Shown here piece by piece: positions 1-21,659 of a DNA stretch of 64,000 nt. The stretch is from NCBI RefSeq assembly GCF_055900595.2, contig NZ_CM148325.1. The stretch is one strand, 5' to 3'. The notes under the pieces were generated by a model. The model searched no databases and had not been told where the DNA came from. It saw only the letters and a list, made by a program, of their open reading frames with translations. Position 1 is the first letter of the stretch. Every line of letters begins with the position of its first letter. A program made the translations under genes and the position numbers.

Positions 1-991
1 GTTGGTCGCTCATCCAGGCATCAATGTTAACGACGTCAATACGCGCCATCTCTTCTCGCGTACACAACCGCTGGAGATTAGCGCGAATATCTGCCGCCAG
101 GTTACGCGTAAAGGTCGTGAAAAGTACCTTCTTACCGGGTTTATCTACCAGACGCTGAGATAACCACCGCGCACGGTGCATTGCAACAACCGTTTTCCCT
201 GTACCTGCACCGCCCAGTACTCGTACCGGACCATTAGCGGGCGACTCCACCAGTTTTCGCTGGCTCGGGTGCAGAAATACACGCCATTTTTCTAAAGGCG
301 CATTAAGCATCTGCAATAGTTCCTGTTCATTTTCAACGACATGGAAGCGACGTTTACTTCGTTCAATCGCCTCCATAAAGTCGTTGGTATCAACAGGCTC
401 ATCACGATGATCGTTAAACTCTTCCAGCACTTCCTGGTAATCCAGCCCTTCTGCCAGCCAGTGCAGAGGTTCCCAGGCTTCTGCTGGCATTATGCTTTCA
501 AGTTGATTAAGCCCGGCTTCATCGGTAAGCGCCATCACCTGATCAATAAAGACAGGCGGCACACCCAGGGCCAGAATCTGTTCCGCGCTGTAAGCTGCGA
601 AGAGTTTCGGTTTATCAACCACCGTTTCCGCTGCCGGTTTGATATAGCTAATATCAATGACCTGAATCGCGCCAGTAACCGGGTGAATCGAACAATCATG
701 CCGCCGCGCCCAGTCATATGCTTCGTCGTGTTTATCCACCCACATCAGCATATACAGAGCACCCTGTTCAGGTTTCAGAACAATGCCGCGATAAGTTTGA
801 TCGATTCGCACCGAATGGACATTTTTACTGCGCGCATCGTGGATCTTTTCATAGTTAAGTCCATTACTGGTCGGGTCCTGACGGAATTTGGAGATGAATT
901 CCTGCACCTTTTTTTGCTGTGCTTTTGGGATCCGCGCGAATGCGCCCAGAAAACCATCAGAAAGTGCCACCTTGGGCGTTTGCACCGTCAT
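1..991 (-). CDS. SF1 (UvrD/Rep-like) P-loop ATPase/helicase, N-terminal part; C-terminus lies beyond the window start
   Basis: Minus-strand frame is open from ATG at 991..989 (MTVQTPKVALSDGFLGAF...) to position 1 with no stop; Walker A GGAGTGKTVVAMHRARW appears after a ~250-aa N-terminal region; start overlaps upstream stop as ATGA. Not in the ORF track because its stop is outside the window. Confidence 0.5.
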   Translation of the reverse strand, partial: MTVQTPKVALSDGFLGAFARIPKAQQKKVQEFISKFRQDPTSNGLNYEKIHDARSKNVHSVRIDQTYRGIVLKPEQGALYMLMWVDKHDEAYDWARRHDCSIHPVTGAIQVIDISYIKPAAETVVDKPKLFAAYSAEQILALGVPPVFIDQVMALTDEAGLNQLESIMPAEAWEPLHWLAEGLDYQEVLEEFNDHRDEPVDTNDFMEAIERSKRRFHVVENEQELLQMLNAPLEKWRVFLHPSQRKLVESPANGPVRVLGGAGTGKTVVAMHRARWLSQRLVDKPGKKVLFTTFTRNLAADIRANLQRLCTREEMARIDVVNIDAWMSDQ

Positions 992-21300: not shown

Positions 21301-21659
21301 GTACCGCTGCTCACTAACAAGGATTTTTTGTCTTCCAGAATTGTTCGCCACGCAGTGAGTTGATGACGAAATGGCACTGGCGCTTTGCTCAATGCATCAA
21401 CCTGCGGGCTGGAGATCAGCTTGTCCCGCAAATCCTCCATTGTTTCATCCGCAGGCATCCAGCCGAATGTACTTTCGAATACCGGGCCTGCAAGCAGTGA
21501 CCCCTCCTGACCGGGAGGCTGAAAATATTGTGATTCCAGATAATGAGTCAACGACTTGCTCCGCAATGCCAACTGACTTACCACCGACCTCACCGCACGC
21601 TGATGAAGCTGATTTAGAAGTGGCGCATAATGCAGTTGCTGAACGTCCATCAATGACAT
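15336..21659 (-). CDS. DruE-like giant helicase (Druantia type III-like), 2107 aa
   Basis: Motif I GTGSGKTE, motif II IVLDEAHSY, motif VI QRAGRAGRRGE far downstream, Cys clusters (CDCG...CSGCG, CVCCGD, CRKCG...CSHCK, CLSCG); same architecture as the 988..7329 protein. Confidence 0.6.
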   Translation of the reverse strand: MSLMDVQQLHYAPLLNQLHQRAVRSVVSQLALRSKSLTHYLESQYFQPPGQEGSLLAGPVFESTFGWMPADETMEDLRDKLISSPQVDALSKAPVPFRHQLTAWRTILEDKKSLLVSSGTGSGKTECFMVPVLEDLIRQQKSTRQSLTGTQAIFLYPLNALINSQQERLREWTRGFKGKIRFALYNGETRHTKYEVQEDQLKVPEQALSREAIYEAPPSIMVTNTTMLEYMLIRRKDAPIIEKSQGMLKYIVLDEAHSYIGSQAAELALLLRRVMQAFNVGPGTDKPVQIIATSATIGEDSPEGNKELAKFVADLAGVTERDVKVVRGYRQIPRVSESLIRHEYPTSLTSLKSLSPQDLYQQLCHYRVAQQLRQALTHPGRQAVRLSELLNVARRTWPDINHRELLQLLDLMARSREGELAFTPLRMHGFIRTLAGLWACSNKQCSHKAHELNQSDWPFGQVWFEQRQYCDCGAPVFEVLRCSGCGSAYLSAKEEMRGDGTNWLVAQPAAAEVDEFALDVDVYSEDEDNDELDNNSQFDRLIASDGEKYIISLEETTAGKIDSEAQKHYEINLLRPESRGEGRNNSFACVCCGDTQRKNNPLFRPLRLGAPFFLNEIIPTLLEFSPLPQTREEQLGPFNGRRLLTFTDSRQGTARISARLQQDADKATLRALCYQELANINEPSAKLSPAHCALLESFIAQFSILPLKNSIDALKKSMVANEELSPADIQALKIIEPMVSSLSPDHAEAMQILQANSGNQQKKTMSWQTLSEQLVGSVDLADRMRGSFKELSGLDLTKQQFADFCLYSEFGRRPKNAWTLESLGLVAIHYPFIDKVTTCPQDWKTLLPDPDKQLAEWRNLLKITLDFFIRENSAVFYENEQYPRWMGARFPVKMLQGPDKKNKGQKRDQLWPQIRDRHYNRVIKLLIAVFPAIQPEQAHWKSLVNHLMIEVWDAIRPCLRQFESGYQLDIKQQAEFYSPKQVWRCPYTRRALDVTLLGYSPYLPGSKEIAPEKAVLIEMPELPVRHWRLSGGGEIAREERLEWLESNALIQHAREEGLWSTRSDRLALKDSWYRLEEHSAQRTPEQNQFNEKQFKSGKVNVLNCSTTMEMGVDIGGMSLVAMNNVPPAPANYLQRAGRAGRRGESASAAITLCKNTAHGMEVFKDPLWAFNTTASAPRVRFGSSSIVQRHVNALVLGLFLRAEVPDATKLSCKWFFEGDESQCLRFLHWLNNQADQLADKLKRLTQGTVLMSLTATQLLTRTQAMMQQVDIRWRSQLAILLENIEALKADNSAWEETPAGKAIAYQLRDYRGAYLFSKLISEAFLPGHGFPVGVVNFNYLTADELEKRRAIKATQADPNEGGESFSRRIEKLPCRDLPTALREYAPGADVVLGGKVYRSSGIMLGKVLASGQELSGDHHIPWFWHCRKCGAGATSATHPVECSHCKADIQQLDVKRYLQPVGFATDIRYQAHNDVSMPAQLPWKDPRVLVPSSVWVSLPDAGLGRYRFSHSGELFHFSEGEFGHGYAICLSCGRAESQTQPQRTPENLKNPERENTHYLLRGGSNDRQGSNKLCHGHVHKDLWLGYSSRTDMVELQLNDDNGLLIRDEVAARSLAVALREGLAHKLGIENTELGVTTQQARDINGYTGYSIFIYDNNAGGAGYAVQLIDHWADVFNYARKLLDCSCDKFCHHCLLSYDSQHYVNRLDRHHALTLLTNVRLQRLNLAPEYQYFVDGSRVETNPLSLRIAQCLNSEIYDSCSLVLAGPQEQWDFAQWPLFKELLQFASSGGNVELLVATPLENLTDSSRHQLSALAAMPGGRLQVKSIATAQLMQGKGRWLAQVTREGQSQQWAADDSATVAPGELWGQSASSPVVTLKGTSGKTFSGQTLSAEDLLPALPTGAVRINLCEQLDGPLEGFGSRFWSLVTQQHAGWKQAFTRHKEITHVEYSDRYLNSPFTARMLGEILTELVEQGMAERASLTVCVKKLDYNSRQHNALYNAWLNEEDRQQVVTTLLEEGYLGPAWPGAISWLTGDNQSTEHGRELTVTFSDGSQHYVLLDMGLSYWRCIEDTFFDFALRVPQQVERLANTRARAVAPGNDLRSYVIAG

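What the first reader, a model, noticed from the sequence alone, without database searches (positions are those of the whole stretch)
988..21659. Two paralogous ~2100-aa DruE-like helicases in adjacent operons
The 2113-aa and 2107-aa proteins share the same order of features: motif I GTGSGKTE near residue ~110, a DExH box ~130 residues later, a very long insertion containing CxxC pairs, then motif VI (QRxGRAGR) about 900 residues downstream. Two such giant cores side by side, one with a methyltransferase/SNF2 module and one with a DruH-like partner, suggests module swapping around a shared helicase core.
Basis: seen in the sequence. Interest (0 to 1): 0.7.

Follow-up and report, generated by a model that had tools for sequence, protein, structure and literature searches.

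The report
Druantia III beside ARMADA II island
The two giant helicases are real and distantly related, but they are the already published core proteins of two known E. coli anti-phage systems, Druantia type III (DruE) and ARMADA type II (ArmC), which sit side by side on the O-island 172 defence island.

Summary
Two minus-strand ORFs of 2113 and 2107 aa carry GTGSGKTE, a DExH box and QRxGRAGR at the stated positions. Family profiles align collinearly over about 1420 columns (E 3e-75, 21.6% identity).

The 2107-aa protein is canonical DruE. It matches the DruE3 model over its full length and is near-identical to solved structure 9TU7. DruH lies upstream, so this pair is Druantia III.

The 2113-aa protein is not a DruE. 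It is ArmC of ARMADA type II, in the operon armA (SNF2), armB (adenine methyltransferase), armC and armD (UvrD/GajB-like, cut by the window edge). Bell et al. 2025 (PMC12458937) and an EHEC preprint (10.1101/2025.09.22.677730) named and tested this array, including its synergy.

Independently significant sequence similarity covers the N-terminus with RecA1, RecA2 and the OB/Zn/MZB module. Four Zn clusters lie in register. Most of the insertion is not demonstrably similar by sequence. The C-terminal modules look unrelated: Vsr-like PD-(D/E)xK fold in ArmC (shown here), PLD in DruE (from the literature).

The copies are ancient paralogues, not a recent duplication. About 9% of complete E. coli genomes carry the array.

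Verdict: real and correctly sensed, but already known. Side leads: ArmC shares a C-terminal domain with ZorE, and other defence genes sit between armB and armC in other taxa.

The parts
1..991 (-). armD, N-terminal 330 codons only; the gene runs off the left end of the window. It encodes a UvrD/GajB-like helicase of 704 aa in full.
   Evidence: 329 of 330 residues are identical to the 704-aa gene in L001. PADLOC GajB E 2.6e-36. Pfam UvrD-helicase and UvrD_C cover residues 241-693. Walker A K266 lies inside the window. The gene overlaps armC by 4 nt.
   Evidence: Pfam DEAD 84-278, Helicase_C 993-1066, MZB 1549-1638. The closest PADLOC models are DruE3 and DruE1, matched only in pieces. K110 and D234 are at the positions mutated in PMC12458937. 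At least 120 full-length homologues of 39-99% identity were listed.
6994..7017 (-). ArmC motif I, GTGSGKTE (residues 105-112).
6619..6630 (-). ArmC DExH box, DELH (residues 234-237).
4360..6441 (-). ArmC insertion between RecA1 and the RecA2 core (residues ~297-990). In order: a helical domain, a beta-rich double-Zn domain (Cys 499/502/556/559/570/573/600/603), the first RecA2 strand (LITFSDS, 638-644), a helical region, a winged-helix unit, and a Zn ribbon (Cys 943/946/965/970).
   Evidence: AF2 model of residues 290-1000, mean pLDDT 79. Invariant Cys. No Pfam domain was found here.
4135..4158 (-). ArmC motif VI, QRIGRAGR (residues 1058-1065).
2416..2685 (-). ArmC MZB/DUF1998 Zn-binding domain (residues 1549-1638; Cys 1623/1625/1634/1637).
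   Evidence: Pfam PF09369 E 7.5e-13. The four Cys align with DruE Cys 1684/1686/1690/1693.
1915..2226 (-). ArmC Vsr-like PD-(D/E)xK nuclease domain (residues ~1702-1805). Invariant residues D1748, P1753, D1768, G1769, H1773, D1780, R1784.
1042..1266 (-). ArmC C-terminal small domain (residues 2022-2096), homologous to the C-terminal domain of ZorE.
   Evidence: PADLOC ZorE2 E 4.5e-9. BLASTP to the window's ZorE residues 279-347, E 5e-9.
7329..12251 (-). armB, a 1640-aa N6-adenine DNA methyltransferase (PglX/DrmMI/MmeI-like). SAM motif at G605, NPPW at 971, variable region ~1040-1440.
   Evidence: PADLOC type IIG model at 957 bits and DrmMI at 192 bits. Weak Pfam hits to Eco57I, MmeI_Mtase and N6_Mtase. 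Motif positions. Variable region.
12254..15112 (-). armA, a 952-aa SNF2/BrxHII/DrmD-like ATPase (K136, DEAH at 236).
   Evidence: PADLOC DrmD E 1.5e-99 and BrxHII E 9.5e-60. NCBIfam DISARM_DrmD scores 350 bits, below its cut-off of 610. Motifs.
15113..15335 (-). 223-bp spacer between druE and armA. It holds a terminator-like hairpin (15304-15290) and a promoter-like site (15231-15204) on the minus strand.
   Evidence: Consensus scans only. This fits two transcription units, and ARMADA was cloned under its native promoters in PMC12458937.
15336..21659 (-). druE, the Druantia III helicase. The longest ORF is 2107 aa; RefSeq starts at 21650, giving 2104 aa.
   Evidence: PADLOC DruE3 PDLC00037 at 2173 bits, covering residues 9-2105. 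PDB 9tu7_Y at 4863 bits over residues 3-2107. Pfam DEAD, Helicase_C and MZB.
21282..21305 (-). DruE motif I, GTGSGKTE (residues 119-126).
20889..20900 (-). DruE DExH box, DEAH (residues 254-257).
18237..18260 (-). DruE motif VI, QRAGRAGR (residues 1134-1141).
16578..16817 (-). DruE MZB/DUF1998 domain (residues 1615-1694).
   Evidence: Pfam PF09369 E 6.3e-12.
21650..25009 (-). druH (YjiT family), 1119 aa, the partner of DruE.
   Evidence: PADLOC DruH3 at 2545 bits, full length. NCBIfam YjiT_fam at 988 bits.
25221..28694 (+). zorA2-zorB2-zorE (Zorya type II), divergent from druHE. It is the third system of the island.
   Evidence: NCBIfam equivalogs score 1139, 444 and 691 bits, all above their cut-offs.

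Best explanation
The region holds two distinct, already described anti-phage systems of the E. coli O-island 172 type defence island. Both are transcribed on the minus strand.

(1) druH-druE is Druantia type III. According to 2026 preprints on near-identical proteins, DruE is a dimeric 3'-to-5' DNA helicase that loads on single-stranded DNA. DruH binds the ssDNA (one group also reports DruH nuclease activity).

(2) armA-armB-armC-armD is ARMADA type II. It has a SNF2 ATPase, a large adenine methyltransferase with a strain-variable specificity region, and the 2113-aa YprA-family helicase ArmC carrying a Vsr-like PD-(D/E)xK nuclease. The fourth gene encodes a UvrD/GajB-like helicase.

The two giant helicases are ancient paralogues within the ARMADA/Druantia branch of the YprA (MrfA) helicase family. 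They share the helicase core, the OB/Zn/MZB 'canopy' and at least one Zn site of the insertion. They differ in most of the insertion sequence, in the C-terminal effector module and in their partners.

Inferred mechanism for ARMADA, not shown here: ArmB marks or reads host DNA. ArmA and ArmC translocate on and unwind unmodified phage DNA, and ArmC's Vsr-like domain cuts it. ArmD assists. Defence is direct, not abortive.
For: Identity of the Druantia III pair:
- DruE matches the DruE3 model at 2173 bits over its full length, and DruH matches DruH3 at 2545 bits.
- DruE matches solved chain 9tu7_Y at 4863 bits. Preprint 10.64898/2026.05.13.724758 identifies 9TU7 as EDL933 DruE.

Identity of the ARMADA II operon:
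- Gene order and family hits for ArmA, ArmB, ArmC and ArmD.
- Every residue mutated in the ARMADA II study sits in the expected motif at the same position in the window proteins: ArmA K136/D236, ArmB G605/N971, ArmC K110/D234, ArmD K266/D454 (PMC12458937).
- A place covering at least 80% of window 900-25100 at 95-99% identity is present in 509 of 5426 complete E. coli genomes.

Relatedness of the two helicases:
- Profile alignment of ArmC 45-1664 with DruE 50-1721, E 3.4e-75.
- Piecewise: N-terminus plus RecA1 1e-52, RecA2 4e-34, OB-CON-MZB 1e-12. RecA2 start P 9e-6 (its block-shuffled controls, which keep the motif intact, reached the same score) and the helical insert sub-domain P 1e-3 (above its shuffles).
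- Cys clusters are in register.
- ArmC is closest to DruE among solved structures (165 bits), ahead of 9wae (92), MrfA/YprA (74) and Lhr (41). No DrmA chain appears among the eight matches.

Other points:
- Conserved linkage: Enterovibrio carries DruH-DruE-ArmA-ArmB-...-ArmC-ArmD at about 50% protein identity.
- Experimental defence, requirement for all four arm genes, non-abortive behaviour and synergy with Druantia III are reported in PMC12458937 and 10.1101/2025.09.22.677730.
Against: - The mechanism of ARMADA is not established anywhere. I found no evidence on what ArmB methylates, or that ArmC cuts DNA.
- The RelE-like N-terminal domain reported for ArmD gave no Pfam hit.
- I could not confirm the claim that the inserted domains are the same folds in both helicases. 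Sequence profiles do not exceed shuffled controls for most of the insertion. The Foldseek search of the solved-structure library returned no DruE chain and no match at E <= 0.001.
- The 2026 preprints disagree on nucleases in Druantia III. One finds the DruE PLD domains dispensable and no nuclease activity (10.64898/2026.05.13.724758). Another calls DruE a helicase-nuclease and reports DruH nuclease activity (PMC13192584).
- ArmB's best PADLOC model is labelled 'type IIG restriction enzyme-methyltransferase'.
Confidence: 0.9

Rival explanations
1. The two giant genes are a recent tandem duplication of one DruE gene, and one copy later acquired new partners.
For: The sizes are similar (2113 vs 2107 aa), the strand is the same, the genes are adjacent, and motif I is the identical octapeptide.
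Against: Identity is only 21.6% over the aligned columns, and the C-termini show no detectable similarity. Each protein has its own full-length orthologues. In Vibrionaceae, ArmC homologues are about 52% identical and DruE homologues about 50% identical to the window proteins, and both lie on the same contig. So the split long predates this island. PF27116 (YjiV_N) is recorded for all listed DruE homologues and for none of the ArmC homologues.
Confidence: 0.02
2. The armABC(D) operon is best classed as a DISARM class 1 variant, with DrmD, DrmMI and a DrmA-DrmB fusion. On this view its helicase has no special relation to DruE.
For: ArmA hits DrmD models (E 1.5e-99) and ArmB hits DrmMI (E 5e-57). 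The gene order SNF2-MTase-helicase mirrors class 1 DISARM. The EHEC preprint describes the DefenseFinder-predicted third system as 'DISARM I-related'.
Against: ArmC hits DrmA models only over about 85 residues of RecA2 (49 bits), against 345 and 323 bits to DruE3 and DruE1. No DrmA chain is among its solved-structure matches. ArmA scores below the NCBIfam DrmD cut-off (350 vs 610 bits). There is no separate DrmB and no PLD DrmC, and an extra UvrD-like gene is present.
Confidence: 0.05
3. ArmB is a type IIG restriction-modification enzyme, and the flanking helicases are accessory or unrelated genes.
For: The best PADLOC model for ArmB is REase_MTase_IIG PDLC03614, at 957 bits and near full length. 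Pfam gives weak MmeI_Mtase and Eco57I hits.
Against: The four genes overlap or abut. The ArmA-ArmB-ArmC-ArmD order is kept in a Calditrichaeota MAG and in Enterovibrio, with other genes inserted between armB and armC. All four genes are needed for defence (PMC12458937). No nuclease domain was detected in ArmB by Pfam. The PADLOC label may simply reflect how REBASE-derived seeds were named.
Confidence: 0.03
4. The 2107-aa protein is a motility-regulating RNA helicase rather than a defence protein, as some RefSeq records name it.
For: The RefSeq product name 'motility-regulating DEAH-box RNA helicase' appears in several genomes.
Against: Purified DruE bound ssDNA but not ssRNA. Deleting druE had no effect on fliC or motility in EDL933 (10.64898/2026.05.13.724758). 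Several groups report a defence phenotype.
Confidence: 0.02

Closest known systems
ARMADA type II (armABCD) of E. coli NCTC 12900 / ATCC 8739 / EDL933 (Bell et al. 2025, PMC12458937; 10.1101/2025.09.22.677730)
   Same: Same four genes in the same order and with the same sizes. The catalytic residues sit at the same positions (ArmA K136/D236, ArmB G605/N971, ArmC K110/D234, ArmD K266/D454). The neighbours are the same (Druantia III, Zorya II). ArmC has a Vsr-like C-terminal nuclease fold.
   Different: Nothing of substance differs. ArmB differs from other strains in a block at about residues 1040-1440 (91% identity overall to strain CFSAN061771). armD is truncated only by the window edge.
Druantia type III (DruH-DruE) of E. 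coli EDL933 / ATCC 8739; solved structures 9TU7-9TUD
   Same: The 2107-aa protein matches chain 9tu7_Y almost perfectly. DruH is a full-length match. The two genes overlap, with DruH first.
   Different: None for the druHE pair. The 2113-aa protein is not a member: it gives only fragmentary DruE-model matches, has no DruH partner, and has a C-terminal fold of a different kind.
DISARM class 1 (DrmD, DrmMI, DrmA, DrmB, DrmC)
   Same: ARMADA shares an SNF2 ATPase and a large adenine methyltransferase, in the same order upstream of a YprA-family helicase with DUF1998.
   Different: The helicase and the DUF1998 module are fused in one protein. The helicase is closer to DruE than to DrmA. A Vsr-like fold fused to the helicase replaces the separate PLD protein DrmC. 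A UvrD-like fourth gene is added.
MrfA/YprA DNA-repair helicase (PDB 6ZNP)
   Same: Both giants hit it (74 and 71 bits). They share RecA1, RecA2, the OB fold and the MZB 4-Cys domain.
   Different: MrfA is 751 aa. It has no ~700-residue insertion, no extra Zn clusters and no fused nuclease module, and its role is repair, not defence.

Membership tests
Druantia type III | A DruE protein that matches the type III DruE model over its full length. | tested here: met
   The 2107-aa protein scores 2173 bits against PDLC00037, covering residues 9-2105 of the protein and positions 4-2051 of the 2055-position model. It scores 4863 bits to 9tu7_Y.
Druantia type III | A DruH (YjiT family) gene immediately upstream in the same operon. 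| tested here: met
   ORF 21650-25009 (-) scores 2545 bits to DruH3 over its full length. It overlaps the start of druE.
Druantia type III | Intact helicase motifs and the MZB 4-Cys cluster. Helicase activity and the MZB Cys residues are reported as required for defence in 10.64898/2026.05.13.724758. | tested here: met
   GTGSGKTE at 119, DEAH at 254, QRAGRAGR at 1134. Invariant Cys 1684/1686/1690/1693.
Druantia type III | Protection against phages. | not testable with these tools
   Reported for near-identical systems.
   The best model, DruE3, scores 345 bits in two stretches. DruE1 scores 323 bits in three stretches. The partners are an SNF2 ATPase, a methyltransferase and a UvrD-like helicase, none of them a Druantia gene. 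PF27116 (YjiV_N) is absent from all 120 listed homologues.
ARMADA type II | ArmA: a BrxHII/RapA-like SNF2 helicase encoded first. | tested here: met
   PADLOC DrmD E 1.5e-99 and BrxHII E 9.5e-60. NCBIfam RapA E 2e-38. GLGKT at K136 and DEAH at D236.
ARMADA type II | ArmB: a PglX-like adenine methyltransferase with an NPPW motif. | tested here: met
   NPPW at 971 and the SAM motif at G605. DrmMI, PglX and MmeI_Mtase hits.
ARMADA type II | ArmC: a YprA-family helicase with a fused OB-CON-DUF1998 module. | tested here: met
   Pfam DEAD, Helicase_C and MZB. MrfA/YprA 6znp at E 4.7e-20.
ARMADA type II | ArmC has a C-terminal Vsr-type PD-(D/E)xK nuclease domain. | tested here: met
ARMADA type II | ArmC insertion made of a BrxA-like domain, a beta-barrel Zn module and a MarR-like domain. 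| tested here: inconclusive
   The AF2 model shows, in order, a helical domain, a beta-rich domain with 8 invariant Cys, a helical region, a winged-helix unit and a Zn ribbon. Foldseek against PDB gave no significant match; the best were Fur/MarR-type winged helices at E about 1.
ARMADA type II | ArmD: a GajB-like UvrD helicase encoded last. | tested here: met
   PADLOC GajB E 2.6e-36. Pfam UvrD-helicase and UvrD_C. 4-nt overlap with armC. Only 330 codons lie inside the window.
ARMADA type II | ArmD has an N-terminal RelE-like domain. | tested here: inconclusive
   Residues 1-240 of ArmD gave no Pfam hit at E <= 0.001. No structure prediction was available for it.
ARMADA type II | Strict gene order ArmA-ArmB-ArmC-ArmD. 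| tested here: met
   The order is also kept in a Calditrichaeota MAG and in Enterovibrio, but there other genes are inserted between armB and armC.
DISARM class 1 | DrmA helicase and DrmB (DUF1998) as separate genes, plus a PLD nuclease DrmC. | tested here: not met
   The helicase and MZB domain are in one ORF. No PLD gene is present. DrmA models match only about 85 residues.
DISARM class 1 | DrmD scoring above the curated family cut-off. | tested here: not met
   NF038317 scores 350 bits against a cut-off of 610.

The most novel reading that the evidence does not exclude
The ~75-residue C-terminal domain of ArmC is homologous to the C-terminal domain of the Zorya II effector ZorE. In Enterovibrio the whole ZorA-ZorB-ZorE module sits inside the ARMADA operon, directly upstream of armC. 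The most novel reading is that this shared domain is a common docking or regulatory module, for example for the ZorAB motor or for a shared DNA intermediate. It would then physically couple ARMADA II to Zorya II and help explain why the three systems travel together. I did not find this stated in the passages I searched of the five papers opened, but those searches were not exhaustive.
Probability: 0.15. Interest if true: 0.55.

Novelty: already known. Interest (0 to 1): 0.2.

Why it matters
The locus matters biologically. [quoted passage not shown] That was established in 2025-2026 preprints, so this finding adds no new system.

What this analysis adds is an independent check with limits.
- Homology of the two giant helicases is solid for the core and the OB/Zn/MZB module.
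- Homology is not demonstrable by sequence for most of the insertion.
- The C-terminal effector modules show no detectable similarity.

Two side observations could guide experiments on how the co-localised systems synergise. One is the ZorE-like C-terminal domain on ArmC. The other is the presence of other defence genes between armB and armC in two other taxa.

Tried and rejected
1. Foldseek of the ArmC insertion model against solved structures, to test fold identity with DruE. There was no match at E <= 0.001 and no DruE chain in the list. That library stops at 2026-04-08, and the DruE preprint dates from May 2026, so 9TU7 is probably not in it. The test could not be made.
2. Foldseek against AFDB50. 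It gave 131 matches at E <= 0.001, all unnamed helicase fragments. I could not tell which, if any, are Druantia DruE, so this does not bear on the question.
3. Profile-profile comparison of separate pieces with reversed and block-shuffled controls. The beta-rich Zn domain, residues 700-990, the helical region after RecA2 and the C-terminus do not exceed the controls. I therefore do not claim sequence homology for them.
4. Pfam on both halves of both giants. Only DEAD, ResIII, Helicase_C and MZB were found, with nothing in the insertions or C-termini.
5. The PADLOC 'HNH endonuclease' label of the ZorE hit on ArmC. I rejected it as a nuclease assignment. The match is to ZorE's C-terminal domain, which lies after the HNH motif, and the ArmC C-terminal model gave only PD-(D/E)xK-type folds.
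6. A recent-duplication scenario, rejected because of the divergence and the separate orthologue sets.
7. The plus-strand ORF at 341-1087 and the other antisense ORFs inside the giant genes. I treated them as by-products of long ORFs on the other strand.

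
Full report
**What is there**

The minus strand of window 1-25009 carries six tightly packed genes:
- druH, 21650-25009, 1119 aa.
- druE, 15336-21659, 2107 aa as the longest ORF; RefSeq starts 3 codons later.
- A 223-bp spacer.
- armA, 12254-15112, 952 aa.
- armB, 7329-12251, 1640 aa.
- armC, 988-7329, 2113 aa.
- armD, from 991 leftwards. Only the first 330 of 704 codons are inside the window.

Within each group the genes overlap or abut by 1-4 nt. The spacer holds a terminator-like hairpin just after druE and a promoter-like site ahead of armA. These are consensus matches only. The zorA2-zorB2-zorE genes lie divergently at 25221-28694.

**Check of the observation**

All stated motifs are present.
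- GTGSGKTE is at residue 105 in ArmC and 119 in DruE.
- DELH is at 234 and DEAH at 254.
- QRIGRAGR is at 1058 and QRAGRAGR at 1134. That is 824 and 880 residues after the DExH box.
- CxxC pairs lie inside the intervening insertion in both proteins.

The proteins are significantly similar. BLASTP gives 30% identity over 45-277 vs 50-300 (E 5e-30). It gives 23% over 997-1662 vs 1077-1718 (E 2e-25).

**What the two proteins are**

The 2107-aa protein is canonical DruE of Druantia type III.
- It scores 2173 bits over the full length of PADLOC DruE3.
- It scores 4863 bits to solved chain 9tu7_Y. Preprint 10.64898/2026.05.13.724758 identifies 9TU7 as DruE of E. coli EDL933.
- Its upstream partner is a full-length DruH (2545 bits).

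The 2113-aa protein is only a distant relative of DruE.
- Its best model is DruE3, at 345 bits in two pieces.
- It scores 165 bits to 9tu7, 74 bits to MrfA/YprA, and 49 bits to DrmA models over a short RecA2 stretch.
- Its operon partners are an SNF2/BrxHII/DrmD-like ATPase, a large N6-adenine methyltransferase and a UvrD/GajB-like helicase.

**Literature**

A full-text search shows this exact array is published. Bell et al. [quoted passage not shown] They show that armABCD protects against phages in a direct, non-abortive way and that all four genes are needed. They also show synergy between ARMADA II and Druantia III.

Preprint 10.1101/2025.09.22.677730 maps the three systems to z5894-z5902 on O-island 172 of EDL933. 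It finds them together in 426 E. coli genomes. My own search found a place covering at least 80% of window 900-25100, at 95-99% identity, in 509 of 5426 complete genomes.

Every residue mutated by Bell et al. lies in the expected motif at the same position in the window's proteins. These are ArmA K136/D236, ArmB G605/N971 (NPPW), ArmC K110/D234 and ArmD K266/D454. Membership in ARMADA II is therefore as firm as sequence can make it.

**How far the homology of the two giants goes**

I built family alignments, first of 27 and 26 sequences and then of 121 and 113. I compared the profiles.

The full-length comparison gives one collinear alignment: ArmC 45-1664 with DruE 50-1721, 1423 columns, E 3.4e-75. 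The two window proteins are 21.6% identical over those columns.

Cut into pieces, the following are independently significant:
- N-terminus plus RecA1, E 1e-52.
- RecA2 core, E 4e-34.
- OB-CON-MZB module, E 1e-12.
- The first RecA2 strand (LITFSDS vs LLTFTDS), P 9e-6. Its block-shuffled controls, which keep this short motif intact, reached the same score.
- Weakly, the helical sub-domain at the start of the insertion: P 1e-3, score 23.8 against a maximum of 13.0 in block-shuffled controls.

Four Zn clusters fall in register:
- ArmC C499/C502 + C600/C603 with DruE C482/C485 + C589/C592. This site is inside the insertion, and the intervening loops are 97 and 103 residues.
- C1352/1355/1371/1374 with C1426/1429/1442/1445.
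- C1483/1486 with C1529/1532.
- The MZB cluster C1623/1625/1634/1637 with C1684/1686/1690/1693.

By contrast, four regions do not exceed reversed or block-shuffled controls. They are the rest of the beta-rich Zn domain, ArmC 700-990, the helical region after RecA2, and the C-terminal ~450 residues. ArmC has two Zn sites with no DruE counterpart (556/559/570/573 and 943/946/965/970).

Pfam's YjiV_N family (PF27116) appears to lie in the DruE insertion, judging from the order of precomputed hits. It is recorded for all listed DruE homologues and for none of the 120 ArmC homologues.

But the claim of a common insertion rests, on my evidence, on one Zn site, the helical sub-domain and the same order of elements. 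Bell et al. assert fold-level equivalence (BrxA-like, beta-barrel Zn module, MarR-like) from predicted structures. I could not test that. The Foldseek search of the solved-structure library returned no DruE chain, and the AFDB50 hits are unnamed fragments.

**C-terminal modules**

Family-invariant residues are D1748, D1768, G1769 and H1773. This agrees with the published 'Vsr-type nuclease'.

The DruE C-terminus is described as two PLD-like domains. One preprint finds them dispensable, with no nuclease activity detected. Another treats DruE as a helicase-nuclease. I did not test the DruE C-terminus myself beyond showing it has no profile similarity to ArmC's.

**Age and linkage of the pair**

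The two helicases are ancient paralogues. Each has its own full-length orthologues down to 35-40% identity.

In Enterovibrio sp. ZSDZ42 both occur on one contig. The order there is DruH-DruE-ArmA-ArmB-[UvrD-like gene, two small genes, ZorA-like, ZorB, ZorE-like]-ArmC-ArmD. Protein identity to the E. coli versions is about 50%. The linkage of the three systems is therefore old, although the arrangement differs.

**How it most likely works**

For Druantia III, the following is shown by others on near-identical proteins. DruE binds ssDNA, unwinds 3'-to-5' and acts as a dimer. Its MZB domain is required. DruH binds ssDNA.

For ARMADA II, the following is also shown by others. All four genes are needed. 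So are the ATPase motifs of ArmA and ArmC, the Walker A motif of ArmD, and the NPPW motif of ArmB. Infected cells stay intact and metabolically normal.

My inference is this. ArmB marks or reads DNA through its strain-variable block at residues ~1040-1440. ArmA and ArmC are motors on unmodified phage DNA. ArmC's Vsr-like domain is the cutter. No step of this inference was tested here.

**Verdict**

The finding is already known, so I score interest low.

Noticed in passing
window 1042-1266 (-) and window 27591-28694 (+); L002:8673-9815: ArmC residues 2022-2096 are 35-40% identical to the C-terminal domain of ZorE (residues 279-347) encoded 26 kb away in the same island. PADLOC ZorE2 gives E 4.5e-9 and BLASTP gives E 5e-9. 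The region also matches the Enterovibrio ZorE homologue (E 3e-8). The AF2 model shows an alpha-alpha-beta-beta-beta-alpha-beta unit. BLASTP found no significant match in DruE or the other island proteins. I did not find this mentioned in the passages I searched of the papers opened.
   Followed up: partly
L004:6674-26402 and L002:1-18548 (Enterovibrio sp. ZSDZ42); L003:1-18585 (Calditrichaeota MAG); L005: Other defence genes sit between armB and armC in other taxa. Enterovibrio has a UvrD-like gene plus a full ZorA-ZorB-ZorE module there. The Calditrichaeota MAG has DUF559 and GmrSD there, and an IS66 transposase lies between armA and armB. In an Ectothiorhodospiraceae genome no gene between armA and armC carries a methyltransferase hit; the stretch holds GmrSD fragments, IS elements and small genes instead. 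The armB|armC junction looks like an insertion hotspot.
   Followed up: partly
window 7329-12251 (-), ArmB residues ~1040-1440 (about window 7932-9134): ArmB is 91% identical to the ArmB of strain CFSAN061771. Nearly all differences are concentrated in one ~400-residue block, while the rest is almost identical. This is probably a target-recognition region. It fits the published remark that island diversity lies mainly in armB.
   Followed up: partly
window 15336-21659 (-): Some RefSeq genomes name DruE 'motility-regulating DEAH-box RNA helicase'. A 2026 preprint (10.64898/2026.05.13.724758) found that the protein binds ssDNA but not ssRNA and has no effect on motility. The database name is probably misleading.
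   Followed up: partly
window 7329-12251 (-): The best PADLOC model for ArmB is labelled 'Type IIG restriction enzyme-methyltransferase' (957 bits, near full length). Automated annotation with that library could therefore label armB as a type IIG enzyme rather than as part of ARMADA. No nuclease domain was detected in ArmB by Pfam.
   Followed up: partly
window 28700-34610: Between zorE and tRNA-Leu(CAA) (34526-34610, minus strand) lie three ORFs. One is a 216-aa ORF that RefSeq annotates as an HNH endonuclease in L001; here it gave only a weak type IV restriction hit. The second is a phosphorothioated-DNA-binding restriction endonuclease (NF045808, 438 bits). The third is a low-GC (33-38%) 681-aa ORF at 31799-33844 with no PADLOC or NCBIfam match. 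The tRNA probably marks the island's integration site.
   Followed up: partly
L001:2814-3464: In the related genome a uracil-DNA glycosylase family gene lies just beyond armD, outside the window's left end. It gave no PADLOC hit.
   Followed up: no
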